Shown piece after piece: positions 814 to 32,513 of a stretch of DNA of 64,000 nucleotides. Within the stretch, counting starts at the first letter, position 1; each line of letters opens with the position of its first letter. The notes under the pieces were generated by a model, which saw nothing but the letters and a program-made list of their open reading frames with translations, was not told the origin of the DNA and made no database searches. The translations under genes were made by a program, and so were the position numbers. Origin of the DNA: an uncultured Gammaproteobacteria bacterium (GTDB taxonomy: Bacteria > Pseudomonadota > Gammaproteobacteria > Xanthomonadales > Rhodanobacteraceae); the NCBI GenBank assembly GCA_963747595.1, contig CAVVFO010000002.1, forward strand, positions 1,227,508 to 1,291,507, written 5' to 3'.

Positions 814-1308
814 ATGAAACTCGAAGGCTCCTGTCATTGCGGTCGCGTGCGTTTCACCTGCGAATCCAGCACTCCGGTTCCCTTCATGCGCTGCTACTGC
901 TCGATCTGCCGCAAGACCGCCGGCACCGGCGGTTACGCCATCAACCTGGGTGCGGACGCCAACTCCATGCAGGTCACGGGACGCGAGCATCTGTCGATCT
1001 ACCACGCCGAGATCGAGGAGGACGGCAAGCGCCGCACCAGTTCCGGTCAGCGTCATTTCTGCAAGCACTGCGGCAGTGCACTGTGGCTGTACGACCCGGA
1101 CTGGCCCGAGCTGATCCACCCGCATGCGTCGGCCATCGATACACCGCTGCCCGTCCCGCCCGAGCGCGTGCATATCCTGCTGGATTCCAAGGCCAACTGG
1201 GTGCAGGTGCCGGAAGGCCCCAATGAAAAGAAGTTCCAGCACTATCCCGATGAATCGCTGGCCGACTGGCACCAACGGCACGGGTTGTCCGATGCCAAAG
1301 CCCCGTGA
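814..1308 (+). CDS. GFA/CENP-V family Zn-binding protein
   Basis: LEGSCHCG, CYCSICRK and RHFCKHCGS Cys motifs; GAGG RBS before ATG 814. Confidence 0.9.
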   Translation: MKLEGSCHCGRVRFTCESSTPVPFMRCYCSICRKTAGTGGYAINLGADANSMQVTGREHLSIYHAEIEEDGKRRTSSGQRHFCKHCGSALWLYDPDWPELIHPHASAIDTPLPVPPERVHILLDSKANWVQVPEGPNEKKFQHYPDESLADWHQRHGLSDAKAP

Positions 1309-1333
1309 TGCAAGCTACGGCCACACTTCTCAC

Positions 1334-1440
1334 GTAGGGCGGACCAAGGAGCATCAGCGACGGATCCGCCTGCTTGCGTGGGCTCACAAACATCACCGCA
1401 AGCAGGCGGCTCCGTCCCTTCGGTCCTTGAGCCACCCTGC
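1334..1440. repeat. GTAG-type REP inverted doublet (REPIN-like), copy 1
   Basis: GTAGGGCGGACCAAGG...GACGGATCCGCCTGCTTGC (1334-1377) faces inverted arm GCAAGCAGGCGGCTCCGTC...CCTTGAGCCACCCTGC (1398-1440), between convergent genes; same family at 31.2-31.4 kb and 32.5-32.7 kb. Confidence 0.85.
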
Positions 1441-1460
1441 TTTGCGTATTGATCCCGGCC

Positions 1461-2840
1461 TCAACCCAGCGCACGCACCCGGAAATTGCGCCCCTTGATG
1501 CGTCCCTCACGCAGACGCTGCAACGCCTTGTTGGCCAATGCGCGGCTGATCGCCACATAGGCGCGGGTGGCGAACACGTCGATCTTGCCCACGTCGCCCG
1601 CCTTCAGGCCGGCATCGCCCGTCAGCGCGCCGAGGATGTCGCCGGGGCGCAGTTTGTCCTGCCGGCCGGCGTCGATCACCAGCGTTTTCATGGGCGCCAG
1701 ATGCAGGACCTTGCCGCCGGCAGCAGCGACCTTCAGCGGCCGCCACGGCAGCGGCGCGCCCTGCATCTCGCCGATGCTTTCGGCCCTGGCCCGTTCGCGC
1801 GACGTGCACAGCGTGATGGCCACGCCGGCTTGCCCGGCGCGTCCCGTACGACCGATGCGATGCGTATGCGTCTGCGGGTCGTGCGGCACGTCGTAGCTGA
1901 GCACCAGCGGCAAGCTGGCAATGTCCAGACCGCGCGCGGCCACGTCGGTGGCGACCAGCACCGCGCAACTGCGGTTGGCAAAACGCACCAGCACCTCGTC
2001 ACGGTCGCGCTGGTCCTTGTCGCCGTGCAAGGCCAGCGCGGAAAACCCGCGGCGATCCAGCTCCTCTGCCACCACATCGACATCGCGACGCATGTTGCAG
2101 AAGACCAGGGCATGCTCCGCGTGTGCATGGCCCAGAAGCTGCGCCAGCGCGTCCATCTTTCGCGCCGGTTCCACTTCATGGAAGCGTTGCTCGATCGCTG
2201 GCGCTGCATCGGCCGGCGCATCCACCGTCACCTCGAGCGGATCGCGTTGCAGGCGCTGGCTCGCCACGCGGATCTCCTGCGGATACGTGGCCGAGAACAG
2301 CAGCGTCTGATGGTGTTTGGCGATGCGCCCCACGATGTCGTCGATGACCTCACCGAACCCCATGTCCAGCATGCGGTCCGCCTCGTCCAGCACCAGCACC
2401 CTGATGCCGCCGCCATGCAGGCTGCCGCGCTTGAGGTGTTCCTGCACGCGGCCAGGCGTGCCCACCACGATGTGCGGATCATGCGTCAGCGACGCCAACT
2501 GCGGCCCCAGGGGCATGCCGCCGCACAGCGTCAGCAACTTCACGTTGGGAATGTTGGCCGCCAGCTTGCGCAGCGCCTTGCTGACCTGGTCGGCCAGTTC
2601 CCGCGTGGGGCAGAGCACCAGCGCCTGCAGCCGGATGCTGGCGACATCCAGTACCTGCAGCAATCCCAGGCCAAATGCCGCGGTCTTGCCGCTGCCGGTC
2701 TGCGCCTGCGCGATCACGTCGCGCCCCGCCAGCAGCGGCGGCAGGCTCCGCGCCTGCACCGGCGTCATCTTCGCATAGCCAAGCGATTCGACGCTGGCCA
2801 ACAGCTCGGGTTTCAATGGCAATGAAGCAAATTCAGTCAT
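1461..2840 (-). CDS. dbpA: ATP-dependent RNA helicase DbpA
   Basis: Q motif, AQTGSGKT, PTRELA, DEAD, SAT, HRIGRTGRAG and C-terminal DbpA RNA-binding domain (LRPGDILGALTG). Confidence 0.93.
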   Translation of the reverse strand: MTEFASLPLKPELLASVESLGYAKMTPVQARSLPPLLAGRDVIAQAQTGSGKTAAFGLGLLQVLDVASIRLQALVLCPTRELADQVSKALRKLAANIPNVKLLTLCGGMPLGPQLASLTHDPHIVVGTPGRVQEHLKRGSLHGGGIRVLVLDEADRMLDMGFGEVIDDIVGRIAKHHQTLLFSATYPQEIRVASQRLQRDPLEVTVDAPADAAPAIEQRFHEVEPARKMDALAQLLGHAHAEHALVFCNMRRDVDVVAEELDRRGFSALALHGDKDQRDRDEVLVRFANRSCAVLVATDVAARGLDIASLPLVLSYDVPHDPQTHTHRIGRTGRAGQAGVAITLCTSRERARAESIGEMQGAPLPWRPLKVAAAGGKVLHLAPMKTLVIDAGRQDKLRPGDILGALTGDAGLKAGDVGKIDVFATRAYVAISRALANKALQRLREGRIKGRNFRVRALG

Positions 2841-3170
2841 GACACATGATCGCATTTATCGTCCCGCACAGGAGCCGCCATCGGCGAAAAATCGCGCCAA
2901 CATCCAGACAATCGAAGACATTGCCATGCGCGAATGGTCGTAGCTGGACCTACGAACACGCTGGCATGCCCGGGCCGGGACTTGCCGGTCCACCGAACAA
3001 GCGTGGCCCACGTGCATCCACGCCAGCGCCGGCGCCACGGCGCCCCCGGGCCGCGACTTCGGCAGCGCTTCCTGCTGATTCAACCTGCCAGCCGTGATCC
3101 GCAGACATTGCCGAGGCGCAGGGAGTTCATCTGGCCGGAAACAGCTGAAGACTCCTGCCTCGGTCGGCCC

Positions 3171-3788
3171 TCAAAGGCTTCTGCTTGCCCAACGACGGAC
3201 GCGGCGACGCTGCCACCAGCGATTCAGTTGCAGCGTGTCGATGCTGGTCGGTGCTATCAGGTCCCGATTTTTTCCGTCGAACCTGAACGTGCGCTGCGCG
3301 GCACCGATACTTGCTGATGGGCCATAGAAGCTGATTACCGTGATTTCAACGCTGTTTACCTGCGTTGCACGGTCGTCGTGTTCCTCTCCGCGGTCTTGAT
3401 TTCTACTGGCCTTGATCACCATCTCCCTGAACGTACCGATCTTCATTTCCCCGCTGGAGTCAAGCGGCCCCCGCGAGATCTTGGCATTTTCTTTCTGACT
3501 GTGGTCCGTCATGTCACCAAAAAAAGCCACTGAATTCAGCTTTTCCCCGTTATCTGTATATAAGCTCAGGATAATCTCCTGCACATAAATGGCCTCCCTG
3601 CTCATATTGCTGATGACGCAATCTGCCTGCGAAGCACGTCCTGCGCCCACGTCAATGATCACCAGGGACGAGCGCTGCCGACGGAAGCCCGCCACCAGGA
3701 TATTTGCGTAAAAAATCCAGAACACCAACGTGAATATGTTGACGACGACATTTATGATCGAAACATGGTCCGAGATCCACTGAAACAT
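3171..3788 (-). CDS. Hypothetical membrane-anchored protein, AT-richer than flanks
   Basis: 205-aa ORF from ATG 3788 with N-terminal hydrophobic helix (IINVVVNIFTLVFWIFYANILVAGF) followed by RRQR. Confidence 0.7.
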   Translation of the reverse strand: MFQWISDHVSIINVVVNIFTLVFWIFYANILVAGFRRQRSSLVIIDVGAGRASQADCVISNMSREAIYVQEIILSLYTDNGEKLNSVAFFGDMTDHSQKENAKISRGPLDSSGEMKIGTFREMVIKASRNQDRGEEHDDRATQVNSVEITVISFYGPSASIGAAQRTFRFDGKNRDLIAPTSIDTLQLNRWWQRRRVRRWASRSL

Positions 3789-4261
3789 CGATGAACCCAC
3801 CCAATCAGAAAAATGCCGCGAAGGAAAACCCGGACTCATGGAGGCATGAAAATAAAGCCGATGGCAGTTTTCCAGTCGTCATGCCCACCCGGTGTACATG
3901 GGCCCGCAGCCATCGATCAACCTCCCAGGGCTTCACCGGGTAGCCGAGCAGCGCGCCCCCAGGTCAAGTCAAGGTCGACACCAGAAGATCGATGTTTTCG
4001 AGCGCCACATGCCACCTGATAACGCATCATGCCATGGCGTGCGTCGGCGAGGCGTGGACGCTTGTCATGGAGATCCATGAGCAGGCCGGGAGGATTGAAT
4101 CTGGTTGTTTTCCGGCCCCCATATCGACTATTCCCTTCGTCGCGGGCCATCATGAACACCGCGGGACACAAGGGAATTGCCCTCGATCCCCGGGGCGAAC
4201 GGGTGTTGAGGTTGTCCGATCAGCAGGGGAGTCTGCAGCTGCGGGTGCCCGAAGGGCGCGG

Positions 4262-29100: not shown

Positions 29101-29683
29101 GATCGTGGATCGCTACCAGCCGCCGGCACGCAAATCTCAGAACGACGACAAGAGCCGCTACCGCCGCGCGCCGGAAACGCCATGGACCGTCGCCGGCATG
29201 GTCACCGCGGTGCGCCGCCGCGGCGACAGCGCCGCCTTCGTGCGCCTGGAAGACGCCACCGGCTCGGTGGAACTGAGTTTCTTCCGCGAGGCGCTCACCG
29301 AGTACGGCCCGTTGCTGACCCGCGACGCCTTGCTGGTGGTCGACGGCGGCCTGTCCATCGACGATTTCTCCGGCGGCTTCCAGGTCCGCGCGCGCCGAGT
29401 GCTGGGTCTGAACGAAGCCTGCGAGCAACTGGCCGGACAGTTGCGGCTGCGCGTCAACGGCATCGGCCCGCCCTTCCTGGACGCGCTGCGTCAGGCCCTT
29501 GAGGCCTACCGCGGCGGCACCACACCGCTACGCCTGTCCGGCTACTGCAATGGCACCGCCCGTGCCGACCTGGACCTGGGGTCCGAATGGCGCGTGCGCG
29601 CCGCACCACAACTCCTGCGCGACCTGCGCGACCTGCCCGGCGTCACCGACGCCCAACTGCGCATGAACCGCCGCAGCGACTGA
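26189..29683 (+). CDS. dnaE: DNA polymerase III alpha subunit
   Basis: PHP domain HLHVHSEFSL, GPGRGSGAGSLV, PDFDIDF, FNKSHSAAY, OB fold; no intein-sized insertion. Confidence 0.98.
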   Translation: MSARFIHLHVHSEFSLVDSTIRIKALVEACVRADMPAVALTDVNNLFSLVKFYKAAQNAGIKPIVGCDVWMAAPSDPRPFRLTLLCQDRDGYLNLSRLISRAWLEGQHGGHALTDASWLDESSSRGLIALAGPDSAVARLATARPDAAELELRRLKRLFDDRLYLELVRTGRDSEPAWNAAALNLADTLELPVVASNDVRFLLREDFDAHEARVCINQGRILADPRRPRDYSAEQYLKSPEEMTALFEDLPEALENSVELAKRCNLELSFGTYFLPDFPIPAGYDLESYIRAQAREGLEQRLAVHPLAPGKTRADYDARLEKELDVILSMGFPGYFLIVADFIQWAKDNAIPVGPGRGSGAGSLVAWSLKITDLDPLPYELLFERFLNPERVSMPDFDIDFCMDRRDEVIDYVARKYGRDKVSQIITYGTMAAKAVVRDTGRVLGMGYGHVDSIAKLVPNTLGISLSEALKESAELKTRYDDEDEVRELIDLALKLEDLTRNAGKHAGGVVIAPTPLTDFSPLYAEEGGGGVVTQFDKNDVEDVGLVKFDFLGLRTLTIIDWAVKAINDRLENEGRDLLDITQLPLTDPETYALFARGDTVAVFQFESRGMRELLKRAQPDTFEDIIALAALFRPGPLGSGMDRDWTDRKHGLAEVTYPHPLLEPVLKPTYGVIVYQEQVMQIAQVLAGYSLGGADLLRRAMGKKKVEEMAKQRAIFEAGAAKNDIDPNVATAIFDLMEKFAEYGFNKSHSAAYALVAYQTAWLKKHYPAEFLAATLSSDMDNTDKVVNFLNECKAQGLTVQPPDVNDSVYMFTATAPDTIRYGLGAIKGVGEGACAAMAEERHRNGPYRDLADFCRRVEPSRFNKRVLDALIRSGAMDRLAPTRASLAAQLPEAMKAAEQHLRDQVSGQNDMFGSAGPAAITIELPTCPEWPLEQLLDGERDTLGHYLSGHPTDPWKDVLAQLATCPLGEIVDRYQPPARKSQNDDKSRYRRAPETPWTVAGMVTAVRRRGDSAAFVRLEDATGSVELSFFREALTEYGPLLTRDALLVVDGGLSIDDFSGGFQVRARRVLGLNEACEQLAGQLRLRVNGIGPPFLDALRQALEAYRGGTTPLRLSGYCNGTARADLDLGSEWRVRAAPQLLRDLRDLPGVTDAQLRMNRRSD

Positions 29684-29705
29684 CCCGCCGTGCCCCCGTA
29701 GGGCG

Positions 29706-30002
29706 TATATGGACTCCTCCTCCTACGCAAGCGTAAACGATGGGAAAGTGGCACCGCGAACGTATATACGGCTTCATGTTGGGAACCGTCGTTCCCGAGC
29801 CTAGATGGGTTGTTCGCACTGGAGCTGTCTTATCGGATCATCGACGCGTCGTGCGTCTGCGCCCTACGCGACGTTTGCTCCAGCGGGTGTGGGCCTTTTT
29901 TCCATCTTCCGATTGCGCTGCGAGATGTGCTTCCGTGCGGGTGAATCAAACGGTGTGACCTGATCTCAAGGTAATGGCTCTAGACGATGATGGCCTGATT
30001 CA
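29706..30002 (-). ncRNA. Candidate bridge/seek guide RNA region
   Basis: Segments match the target halves (29860-29867, 29834-29840) inside stem CTGGAGC/GCTCCAG and the circle-junction halves (29761-29767, 29738-29745); exact RNA ends unknown. Confidence 0.78.
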
Positions 30003-31097
30003 TCAGGCGGCGGCGGGATCGGCCCTGCGCCCGGCGGGGTGATAAGGGCGGTTGTGCTTGATCACGGCATAGATGATGCGCGCCAGGCGATTGGCCACGG
30101 CCACGGCGACCTTGGCGTCGAGTTTGCCGGCATCAAGCAGGCGCCGCGCGAACAGGCACAGGGCATCATCGCGCCTGCGGCAACGCACGAGCACGGCGTG
30201 CGCGCCTTGCACCAGAAGACGGCGCAGGTACGGGTCGCCCCGCTGGGTGATGAACCCCAGACGCCGCGTTTGCCCGCTGGAGGACTCTTTGGGCGTGAGA
30301 CCGAGGCTGGCGGCAAACTGGCGGGCATCGGCGAAGCGCTCCACCTGCGGGCCGATCTCGCCGGCCACGGCGGTGGCGGTGATCAGACCGACACCAAAGA
30401 TGGTCTCGACCTGTGTGGCCACGGCAGAGGCCTTGAAGGCCTCCTTCAACTGACGGTCCATGGCCTTGATATGCGTACGGACCTGATCCAGATGCTCCAG
30501 CGCCAATGCCACGCTGTGATGCAGTAACGGCGTGATCTCGCCGGTGTCATCCTGGCCATCGGCGGCCGCATGCACGCGCTGTATCAGGGCCTTGAATCCG
30601 GCGTCACCCTTGCCGCCCACCATGCCACGCTCGGCCAGCAGCCCGCGGATCTGATTGATGCACTGGGTCTGCTGGCCGATCAGCAGCTCGCGCACCCGAT
30701 GCTGGGCGCACAGATCCTGCTGCTCGAGCGTCTTGACCGGCACCGGGCGTACACGACGGTCGCAATACACCGCGTAGATCGCATCGGCATCGTTGCCGTC
30801 GGTCTTGTTGCCGTGCCGTGCCTTGTTCACGAACTGGGCTGGAAGCAGCTCAGTGGCATGGCTCCGCTGGCGCAGCTGGCGCGACCAGTGATGGGCGCTG
30901 CCACAGGCCTCCATGACGACCGTGCCGCGCGCCGTGTGCGCCTTGGCAAAAAACTCTTTGAACTGTGCACGGGTGTATGTGCGCTGGGCCAAACGCTCGC
31001 CGTGCGGGCCGAACGTGTGCACCTGAAACTTGGCCTTGGCCAGGTCCACGCAGTACACGCGCTGTGACGGCTGGGTGGTGTGGGCGGTAGTATGCAT
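30003..31097 (-). CDS. IS110-family DEDD/serine recombinase (transposase)
   Basis: RuvC-like DEDD residues (CVDLAK, VMEACG, KTDGNDADAI) and C-terminal LGLTPKESSSG with catalytic Ser; GDPYLRRLLVQGA. Confidence 0.95.
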   Translation of the reverse strand: MHTTAHTTQPSQRVYCVDLAKAKFQVHTFGPHGERLAQRTYTRAQFKEFFAKAHTARGTVVMEACGSAHHWSRQLRQRSHATELLPAQFVNKARHGNKTDGNDADAIYAVYCDRRVRPVPVKTLEQQDLCAQHRVRELLIGQQTQCINQIRGLLAERGMVGGKGDAGFKALIQRVHAAADGQDDTGEITPLLHHSVALALEHLDQVRTHIKAMDRQLKEAFKASAVATQVETIFGVGLITATAVAGEIGPQVERFADARQFAASLGLTPKESSSGQTRRLGFITQRGDPYLRRLLVQGAHAVLVRCRRRDDALCLFARRLLDAGKLDAKVAVAVANRLARIIYAVIKHNRPYHPAGRRADPAAA

Positions 31098-31191
31098 GTC
31101 GGACTCCTCTTCGCTGACAGGTAGGTTCTACGGAACTCCTACCCTAAAGGCACATCGATGCCGTCCTGGCGGGGAGGAGTCCATCCCATCA

Positions 31192-31449
31192 GATCAAGGA
31201 ACGATGAGTGACGGATCCGCCTGCTGGCCGGAAGCCACCCTGACGCCCCCAAAGCTGCTCCTGAATCGCCGCAGCGAGTAGAACAGCCGGCGGGCAGTGC
31301 CCGCCCTACACAATCGCAGGATCGTAGGGCGGGCACTGCCCGACGTCTTCCCTGCGCTGTAACGAGCCGACATTTGATTGCTCGCCGAAAACCACCTGAT
31401 TTCCCGCAAGCAGGCGGCTCCGTCACTGGCGTTCCTTGAGCCGCCCTGC
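31192..31449. repeat. REP cluster: remainder of the IS-split arm, nested short REP doublet, and right arm
   Basis: GATCAAGG...GACGGATCCGCCTGC (31192-31224); perfect 19-bp inverted pair CGGGCAGTGCCCGCCCTAC (31291-31309) / GTAGGGCGGGCACTGCCCG (31324-31342); right arm 31406-31449. Confidence 0.85.
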
Positions 31450-31553
31450 GCGATAAACGCAACTTCCGCCTTCATTTGCCGCACCGCGCCCGCCTGTCGC
31501 GGCATATGCTCACCGGCTATACTGGTCGTCTTTATGGGCTCCAAACGCTGCAC

Positions 31554-32513
31554 ATGAACCCGAATTTCCTCGATTTCGAACAACCGATCGCCGAGCTGGA
31601 AGCGAAGATCGACGAATTGCGCAATGCCAGCCACGGGCAGGCATTCGACATCGACGAGGAAGTCTCGCGCCTGCGTGGCAAGCTCAAGACCAAGACGGCG
31701 GAGATCTTCAGGAACCTCACGCCGTGGCAGATCACCCAGCTCTCGCGCCATCCGCGGCGCCCGTACACGCTGGATTACCTGGGCGTGATGTGCGAGGAAT
31801 TCCGCGAACTGGCCGGTGACCGCGCCTACGCCGACGACAAGGCCATCGTCGGTGGCTTGGCGCGCATCAACGGCCGCGCCGTGATGGTCATCGGCCACCA
31901 GAAGGGTCGCAAGACCAAGGAAAAGATGCTGCGCAACTTCGGCATGCCGCGCCCCGAAGGCTACCGCAAGGCGCTGCGCCTGATGAAGATGGCCGAACGC
32001 TTCGGCCTGCCGGTACTGACATTCATCGACACCATGGGCGCCTATCCCGGCGTCGGTGCCGAGGAACGCGGCCAGTCCGAGGCCATCGCCCGCAATCTGC
32101 TGGAAATGGCCGAGCTGCGCGTGCCCATCGTATGCACAGTGATCGGCGAGGGTGGTTCCGGCGGTGCGCTGGCCATCGGCGTGGGCGATCGCGTCAACAT
32201 GCTGCAGTACTCCACCTATTCCGTGATCACGCCGGAAGGTTGCGCCACCATCCTGTGGCGCAGTGCCGAACGCGCCAAGGACGCCGCCGAGGCGCTGGGC
32301 ATGACCGCACCCAAGATCAAGGACATCGGCCTGATCGACAAGATCATCCGCGAACCGCTGGGCGGTGCGCACCGGAATCCGCATTCCATCGCCGTGCGTC
32401 TGAAAGTGGTGCTCATGAACCAGCTCGACGAACTCGGCGCCCTTCCCGTGGACGACCTGCTGGAGCAACGCTACCAGCGCCTGCGGAAATTCGGCGCCTA
32501 CACCGGCGGCTGA
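31554..32513 (+). CDS. accA: Acetyl-CoA carboxylase carboxyltransferase alpha subunit
   Basis: [44 protein letters not shown]. Confidence 0.98.

What the first reader, a model, noticed from the sequence alone, without database searches (positions are those of the whole stretch)
29698..31199. IS1111-type element precisely splits a REP arm
Seen: removing 29706-31191 rejoins GTAGGGCG and GATCAAGGAACG...GACGGATCCGCCTGC into a normal left REP arm, with no target duplication. The 12-bp inverted repeats sit 7 and 3 nt inside the ends. Known: this spacing and a long 3' non-coding end define the IS1111 subgroup, and several IS110-family elements target REPs. Inference: this element uses the host's abundant intergenic REPs as safe landing sites.
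Basis: partly seen in the sequence, partly recalled or inferred. Interest (0 to 1): 0.72.

Follow-up and report, generated by a model that had tools for sequence, protein, structure and literature searches.

The report
RNA-guided IS1111-type element inside a REP
A 1,486-bp jumping gene of the IS1111 type sits exactly inside one copy of the host's short repeated palindromes (REPs), and it carries a small RNA whose two guide segments spell out that palindrome; this is a clear new example of a mechanism that is already known.

Summary
Window 29706-31191 is an intact insertion sequence with its transposase on the minus strand. It has perfect 12-nt subterminal inverted repeats set 7 and 3 nt inside the ends, a 94-nt 5' end and a 297-nt 3' non-coding end, and no target duplication. 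Removing it restores GTAGGGCG|GATCAAGG..., a normal GTAG-headed REP hairpin. The window holds five other arms of this REP.

The 3' non-coding end encodes a bridge/seek RNA (29748-29934, minus strand). One loop segment, CGTAGGGCG, is the exact complement of the 9 nt right of the insertion point. A second segment, TGATCCG, equals the 5 nt left of it plus the next 2. In relatives with 31-61% identical transposases these segments covary with each element's own flanks. A roughly 92%-identical variant with a one-base guide change (TGAGCCG) sits next to GCTCA, as predicted from that change.

Other copies seen in metagenome runs share the GTAGGGCG flank. REP targeting by IS1111/IS110 elements (ISPa11, ISPpu9/10) and RNA-guided target choice are both published. 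This is therefore a new member of a known kind, in a Rhodanobacteraceae-like host. No expression data, circular form or exact empty allele were available.

The parts
29706..31191 (-). Complete IS1111-type insertion sequence, 1,486 bp. The left end in transposase orientation is window 31191.
   Evidence: The ends are conserved in nine relatives whose flanks differ.
31185..31191 (-). 7-nt left terminal extension (TGATGGG on the transposase strand). Its first two bases (TG) occupy the core position.
   Evidence: The 7/3 rule is stated in PMC11187229.
31173..31184 (.). Left subterminal inverted repeat (ATGGACTCCTCC on the transposase strand).
30003..31097 (-). Transposase gene, 364 aa. It is a DEDD/RuvC-like recombinase with a Transposase_20 C-terminal domain and the GLTPKESSSG motif.
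29706..30002 (-). 297-nt 3' non-coding end.
29748..29934 (-). Predicted bridge/seek RNA with a two-domain fold.
   Evidence: The covariance model hit scores 189.6 bits.
29860..29868 (-). 5' target guide CGUAGGGCG. It is complementary to the 9 nt of REP immediately right of the element in transposase orientation (window 29697-29705).
29834..29840 (-). 3' target guide UGAUCCG. It equals the last 5 nt of the left flank plus the first 2 nt of the right flank, and so pairs with the other strand.
29818..29884 (-). Target-binding domain. The outer stem GCUGGAGC/GCUCCAGU encloses both guides and a central hairpin GACGC...GCGUC.
   Evidence: Compensatory changes appear in every pair of helices 4, 5 and 7. 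An X3 variant carries a G-C to A-U change.
29761..29767 (-). 3' donor guide AUAUACG. It equals the last 5 nt of the element's right end plus the core CG.
   Evidence: It covaries with the right-end sequence and core in distant relatives.
29725..29730 (-). TTGCGT, a candidate -35 box. On the circle it would lie 17 nt upstream of TA|TGAT, which spans the joined ends.
   Evidence: TTGCG is conserved in the relatives, and no promoter is found in the linear form. This part is an inference.
29709..29720 (.). Right subterminal inverted repeat.
29706..29708 (-). 3-nt right terminal extension (ATA on the transposase strand).
29698..29705 (+). First 8 nt (GTAGGGCG) of the interrupted REP, including the GTAG head.
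31192..31224 (+). Remaining 33 nt of the interrupted REP (GATCAAGG...GATCCGCCTGC).
31410..31449 (-). Partner REP of the doublet, of the GCTC/GAGC variant, inverted with its head pointing outward.

Best explanation
This is an intact, probably mobile IS1111-group insertion sequence in a Rhodanobacteraceae-like chromosome. It lies between dnaE and accA.

The proposed cycle runs as follows. The element excises as a circle. Joining its ends probably assembles a promoter. The DEDD recombinase binds a roughly 190-nt RNA made from the 3' non-coding end.

One domain of that RNA reads the target. CGUAGGGCG pairs with one strand of CG+CCCTACG, and UGAUCCG pairs with the other strand of TGATC+CG. Together they specify the 14-nt site CGTAGGGCG|GATCA at the head of a GTAG-type REP hairpin.

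A second domain carries AUAUACG, which matches the element's own right end plus the same CG. Recombination at the shared (C/T)G dinucleotide inserts the element in one orientation without duplication.

Shown here: the anatomy, the guide-to-flank complementarity, its covariation across relatives, and the conserved RNA fold. Inferred: transcription, the circular form, the junction promoter and current activity.
For: Protein family:
- Pfam DEDD_Tnp_IS110 and Transposase_20 both match.
- NCBIfam 'IS110 family RNA-guided transposase' scores 265 bits against a cutoff of 140.
- The protein is 31% identical over 336 aa to the IS4321 transposase.
- Only its C-terminus resembles IS621.

Guides in this element:
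- Both target guides are exact matches. They occur together in 5 of 200,000 shuffles of the non-coding end.

Covariation across relatives:
- In nine subfamily members the guide columns change with the flanks: GTAGGTCG with CGACCTAC, GTAGCCCG with CGGGCTAC, and CACACCG with CACAC|CG.
- Across 34 elements, the complement of the guide 8-mer lies in the element's own downstream flank at 8/8 in 16 cases and 7/8 in 8 cases. Mismatched pairings give 4 and 68 of 1,112. In 21 of these 24 matches it begins exactly 3 nt after the repeat, and in the other 3 one base later.
- The RNA fold has 39 of 43 pairs with changes on both sides. It is 87.9% paired, against 65% in shuffles and 32-41% when partners are slid.
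- The same model finds the RNA in IS4321. There the guide AAAACGGAA is the complement of that element's known Tn21-repeat target.

A prediction that held:
- The X3 variant's guide U-to-G change was expected to go with a GCTCA flank, and GCTCA is what was observed.

Copy number:
- The source genome holds at least 3 copies, one of them frameshifted.

Literature:
- PMC11187229, PMC11208160 and PMC1525189.
Against: - No RNA-seq, circle junction or exact empty allele was available.
- The single-sequence fold is not significantly stable on its own (z = -1.34).
- The left junction carries TG where both 3' guides specify CG.
- A second donor guide for the left end was not identified. The candidate CCCAUC instead forms an RNA helix with AGAUGG.
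- L012 carries a one-base guide/target mismatch.
- The A3 alignment was fitted to the model, which inflates its pair counts.
- The junction -35 box matches only 3 of 6 consensus positions.
Confidence: 0.85

Rival explanations
1. The recombinase recognises the REP hairpin shape or sequence directly, as was assumed before 2024. On this view the RNA matches are incidental.
For: The target is a hairpin-forming REP. A preprint on ISPpu10 reports that a target DNA stem-loop is also required, so structure may contribute.
Against: The guide columns covary with the flanks across 34 elements, including non-REP targets such as the Tn21 repeat of IS4321. A single-base guide change tracks a single-base flank change. 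Protein-only recognition does not predict either result.
Confidence: 0.05
2. The element is a fixed relic. It inserted long ago by the mechanism above and no longer moves. This is compatible with the main explanation of how it arrived.
For: One genomic copy is frameshifted. The window copy has F282 where the other copies have S. No circular form or empty site was seen.
Against: The reading frame is intact, the repeats are perfect and the guides match exactly. Copies are 99.6-99.8% identical, and run X1 shows two different left contexts. Related variants reach roughly 10-30x chromosomal depth in run X5.
Confidence: 0.1
3. The REP-like flanks belong to the mobile unit itself, as a longer element with REP-like termini. 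On this view they are not a pre-existing target.
For: The flanks are shared by several copies.
Against: Five uninterrupted arms of the same REP exist in the window without the element. Relatives with identical ends have different flanks. The two halves form one hairpin arm, not inverted termini.
Confidence: 0.02

Closest known systems
ISPa11 (IS1111 group, Pseudomonas aeruginosa)
   Same: It inserts at one fixed position inside a REP, between bases 6 and 7, without direct repeats and in one orientation (PMC1525189). Its seekRNA from the 3' non-coding end has the top-strand complement ahead of the bottom-strand match (PMC11187229).
   Different: The host order and the REP family differ. Here insertion is between bases 8 and 9 of a 41-nt GTAG-headed REP. 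The sequence relationship to the ISPa11 transposase was not measured here.
IS4321 / IS5075 (IS1111 group)
   Same: The transposase is 31% identical over its full length. It has an 11-nt subterminal repeat that also begins ATGG, with 7- and 3-nt extensions. Model R1 detects a homologous 3' RNA, and the guide logic is the same.
   Different: Its target is the 38-bp terminal repeat of Tn21-family transposons on plasmids, not a chromosomal REP.
IS621 / ISPpu10 (IS110 group bridge recombinases)
   Same: They use RNA-guided recombination with separate target and donor loops and a shared core dinucleotide. Their natural targets are REPs.
   Different: Their RNA is encoded at the 5' end and the guide order is mirrored. 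They have no long subterminal repeats. Only the C-terminal domain is detectably similar (E = 1.7e-9).
GTAG-type REPs and head-outward REP dimers (PMC3733652)
   Same: The target has a GTAG head, a stem of about 11 bp, a loop and a 3-nt tail. It is arranged as inverted dimers with the GTAG ends outside and spacers of 18-170 nt.
   Different: Association with a REP-associated tyrosine transposase (RAYT) gene was not examined. Copy number is known only from metagenome depth.

Membership tests
IS1111 group of the IS110 family | DEDD (RuvC-like) N-terminal domain plus a PF02371 C-terminal domain | tested here: met
   PF01548 matches at E = 5.6e-12 and PF02371 at E = 6e-22. NF033542 scores 264.9 bits.
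IS1111 group of the IS110 family | Transposase related over its full length to IS1111-type transposases, with the GL-P----S(T)G motif | tested here: met
   It is 31% identical to the IS4321 transposase over residues 17-352, E = 9e-45. The motif GLTPKESSSG is in the translation, and G266, S273 and G275 are invariant in A1. No comparison with IS1111 itself was made.
IS1111 group of the IS110 family | Subterminal inverted repeats of about 11-13 bp | tested here: met
   A 12-nt perfect repeat, unique in the window.
IS1111 group of the IS110 family | Asymmetric terminal extensions of 7 nt (left) and 3 nt (right) | tested here: met
   TGATGGG and ATA. Both are conserved in the relatives while the flanks differ.
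IS1111 group of the IS110 family | The long non-coding region lies downstream of the transposase gene | tested here: met
   297 nt downstream against 94 nt upstream.
IS1111 group of the IS110 family | No target-site duplication; site- and orientation-specific insertion | tested here: met
   The REP rejoins exactly. Other copies share the CGTAGGGCG flank. Both flanks are known only for this locus and for the main X3 context.
IS1111 group of the IS110 family | A 3' RNA with segments complementary to both target strands, top-strand complement first | tested here: met
   Sequence and covariation support it. Whether the RNA is made or binds the protein could not be tested.
IS1111 group of the IS110 family | Circular intermediate with abutted ends that creates a promoter | not testable with these tools
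   Only a predicted TTGCGT-17-TATGAT across the joined ends.
GTAG-type REP | Short palindrome of 20-40 bp with a terminal GTAG | tested here: met
   Each 40-41-nt arm folds as its own hairpin. The GATC/GATC and GCTC/GAGC variants are compensatory.
GTAG-type REP | High copy number and extragenic location | tested here: inconclusive
   The window has six arms in three doublets, all lying between long ORFs. Depth ratios of about 50-70x in runs X1, X5 and X8 may mix several genomes.
GTAG-type REP | A cognate REP-associated tyrosine transposase in the genome | not tested
   No search for such a gene was made.

The most novel reading that the evidence does not exclude
A whole IS1111 subfamily in Xanthomonadales-type hosts may keep one guide fixed on the GTAG head of REPs. 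That is the part of the REP expected to be held constant by the REP's own transposase. The other guide would drift to follow host-specific REP variants.

Support so far: eight of nine members have GUAG-type guides. A one-base guide switch (UGAUCCG to UGAGCCG) matches the difference between the two arm variants of the same REP doublet. If this reading is right, the elements and the REP families co-evolve, and the guide sequence could be used to read out an unknown host's REP repertoire.
Probability: 0.35. Interest if true: 0.5.

Novelty: new member of a known kind. Interest (0 to 1): 0.33.

Why it matters
It adds a well-delimited, apparently intact IS1111-type element from a poorly sampled Rhodanobacteraceae-like lineage. 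The nearest transposase outside its own cluster is 62% identical. It comes with a fully readable guide-to-target code and natural examples of retargeting.

This is useful for annotation: the boundaries, the RNA gene and the target can now be called from sequence alone. It is also useful as comparative material for bridge/seek RNA design rules in the less-studied IS1111 branch. It does not change current understanding of how these elements work.

Tried and rejected
1. An 'AT core' alternative boundary, with empty site GTAGGGCGTATCAAGG. Rejected because the relatives conserve TGATGGG and ATA while the bases just outside differ.
2. CCCAUC (29803-29808) as the donor guide for the left end. Rejected because it covaries with AGAUGG as an RNA-RNA helix rather than with the left-end sequence.
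3. Exact-protein look-ups of the window transposase and two cluster members found nothing.
4. Rfam 15 has no family matching the RNA at E <= 1.
5. No sigma-70-like promoter was found in the linear element.
6. The search for an empty allele found no read-through joint 29705>31192 in seven runs. One more distant relative (X6) has dnaE and accA only 105 nt apart, with neither the REP nor the element.
7. The 2-bp GG/CC helix that RNAalifold drew between the two guides is unsupported, at 39.7% paired.

Full report
**1. What is there**

Window 29706-31191 is a 1,486-bp element. A 364-aa ORF lies on the minus strand (31097 to 30003). It carries the two Pfam domains of IS110-family transposases and matches NCBIfam 'IS110 family RNA-guided transposase' at 265 bits.

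A perfect 12-nt inverted repeat (ATGGACTCCTCC) occurs only at 29709-29720 and 31173-31184 in the 64 kb. In transposase orientation:
- the left end is TGATGGG + repeat, a 7-nt extension followed by 94 nt before the ATG;
- the right end is repeat + ATA, a 3-nt extension preceded by a 297-nt non-coding region.

The element sits 22 nt after the dnaE stop and upstream of accA. AccA is 82-85% identical to Dyella, Frateuria and Rhodanobacter proteins, so the host is Rhodanobacteraceae-like.

**2. The interrupted repeat**

The flanks are GTAGGGCG (29698-29705) and GATCAAGGAACG...GATCCGCCTGC (31192-31224). Joined, they align without a gap at the junction to five uninterrupted arms. These are the left arms at 1334 and 32535 and the inverted right arms ending at 1440, 31449 and 32658.

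Each 40-41-nt arm folds as its own hairpin with a GTAG head. Left arms use GGATC/GATCC and right arms use GGCTC/GAGCC, which is a compensatory difference. These are therefore GTAG-type REPs arranged as head-outward dimers, as described in PMC3733652.

There is no target duplication. A shared AT allowed a different boundary, but relatives with different flanks keep exactly (T/C)GATGGG and ATA.

**3. Other copies**

The protein cluster holds a second full copy on the same 2.08-Mb contig (2 aa different) and a frameshifted copy on a 0.97-Mb contig. Evidence from sequencing runs:
- **L001 and L002.** Two assembled contigs of the same locus stop 9 nt outside the right end (in transposase orientation). 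L002 also stops 9 nt outside the left end. This is what a repeat with shared flanks produces.
- **X1.** A second left context again reads ...CGTAGGGCG|element.
- **X3 and X8.** Variants also abut (C)GTAGGGCG.
- **Intact arms.** In X1 and X3 they read GTAGGGCG(G/A)ATCAAGG.
- **Depth.** The REP arm is about 50-70x deeper than single-copy flanks in X1, X5 and X8. Relatives of the element reach roughly 10-30x in X5.

**4. How the site is chosen**

On the transposase strand the 3' non-coding end contains two guide segments. CGTAGGGCG (29868 to 29860) is the exact complement of the 9 nt right of the element. TGATCCG (29840 to 29834) is identical to the last 5 nt of the left flank plus the first 2 nt of the right flank. 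Both occur together in 5 of 200,000 shuffles.

The two segments lie on opposite sides of an internal loop. The loop is closed by GCUGGAGC/GCUCCAGU and has a hairpin between the segments. The order, top-strand complement first, and the 2-nt overlap on the target are what PMC11187229 reports for IS1111 seekRNAs.

*Covariation in the subfamily.* Nine members (53-61% identical transposases, from metagenome contigs) share the ends and the RNA scaffold. Their guide columns change with their own flanks.

*Covariation in distant relatives.* A covariance model built from these nine finds the same RNA 3' of the gene in 42 further relatives, 41 of them with 31-41% identical transposases. Of 43 modelled pairs, 39 show changes on both sides. 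Pairing is 87.9%, against 65% in shuffles and 32-41% when partners are slid. That alignment was fitted to the model, which favours the structure.

*Guide-to-flank test.* Across 34 distinct elements, the complement of the guide's last 8 nt is found in the element's own downstream flank. It matches 8/8 in 16 cases and 7/8 in 8 cases. Mismatched element/flank pairings give 4 and 68 of 1,112. In 21 of the 24 matches it starts exactly 3 nt after the repeat, and in the other 3 one base later.

*Check against a known element.* The model also hits both IS4321 copies of plasmid R751. There the guide AAAACGGAA is the complement of the known Tn21-repeat target.

*A prediction that held.* The X3 variant, about 92% identical, has U-to-G in the 3' guide (TGAGCCG) and a compensatory G-C to A-U change in the outer stem. 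Its flank was predicted to read GCTCA instead of GATCA, and it does (31193 A>C).

**5. Donor side**

AUAUACG (29767 to 29761) equals the last 5 nt of the right end plus CG. In distant relatives this segment covaries with both the right-end sequence and the dinucleotide: ATACA+TG, ACACA+TG, ATATA+AG and ATGTA+AG. In most elements checked, including this one, both 3' guides end in the same dinucleotide, which behaves like the 'core' of IS621 bridge RNAs.

Here the guides say CG, the right junction has CG and the left junction has TG. Relatives L004 and L010 have CG at both junctions. A guide for the left end was not found. CCCAUC instead pairs with AGAUGG within the RNA.

Joining the ends would place the conserved TTGCGT 17 nt from TA|TGAT. 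No promoter is seen in the linear form. This promoter is an inference.

**6. Comparison and verdict**

Every testable defining feature of the IS1111 group is met; see the membership table. REP targeting by IS110/IS1111 elements has been known since 2006 (ISPa11, ISPpu9/10). RNA guidance has been known since 2024. The 'safe zone' idea is published for ISPpu10.

This is a new element in a new host lineage. The closest transposase outside its own cluster is 62% identical.

Still missing are transcription data, the circular form and the exact empty allele. A more distant relative (X6) has dnaE and accA 105 nt apart, with neither the REP nor the element.

Noticed in passing
window 31285-31348: A second, shorter GTAG-type palindrome pair (GTAGGGCGGGCACTGCCCG and its inverse, 25-nt arms, 92% complementary) is nested in the 185-nt spacer of the interrupted REP doublet. 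The other two doublets have spacers of only 18-32 nt.
   Followed up: partly
L009:1374-1404 and 2831-2861: This relative's right end is not repeat + ATA. It is an inverted copy of the left end together with its flank (GGAGTCCAT CCCATCA GTTCAATTG). Its RNA guides (TCCGGGGCG / TGAACCG) match only the left flank. It may be a rearranged or two-left-ended element.
   Followed up: no
window 31190-31191 versus 29697-29698 and guides at 29834-29835 / 29761-29762: Both 3' guides specify a CG core, but the element's left junction carries TG. Relatives show TG, CG, TA or TT at the left junction, not always equal to the right one. How strictly the core must match in IS1111-type elements is unclear.
   Followed up: partly
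window 29803-29808 and 29902-29907 (minus strand): The RNA helix AGAUGG/CCAUCU has nearly the same sequence as the element's own left extension (TGATGGG), yet it covaries as an RNA-RNA helix. No separate guide for the left end was found.
   Followed up: partly
runs X5 and X8 laid on window 29200-31700: In run X5 (labelled as a single organism), relatives of the element have word depth of about 1,000-3,900 against about 100 for dnaE, which suggests tens of copies. The REP right arm reaches about 7,800.
   Followed up: partly
run X6 laid on window 29602 > 31494: A related hot-spring organism has dnaE and accA separated by only 105 nt. The whole REP doublet, not just the element, is therefore lineage-specific at this locus.
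   Followed up: partly
window 30254-30256 (codon 282 of the transposase): The window copy has F282 (LGFITQRG). The second genomic copy, the metagenome copy and the frameshifted copy's C-terminal fragment all have S.
   Followed up: no
window 29748-29934: Rfam 15 returned no match at E <= 1 for this well-conserved structured RNA. IS1111-type bridge/seek RNAs therefore appear not to be covered by a curated family.
   Followed up: partly
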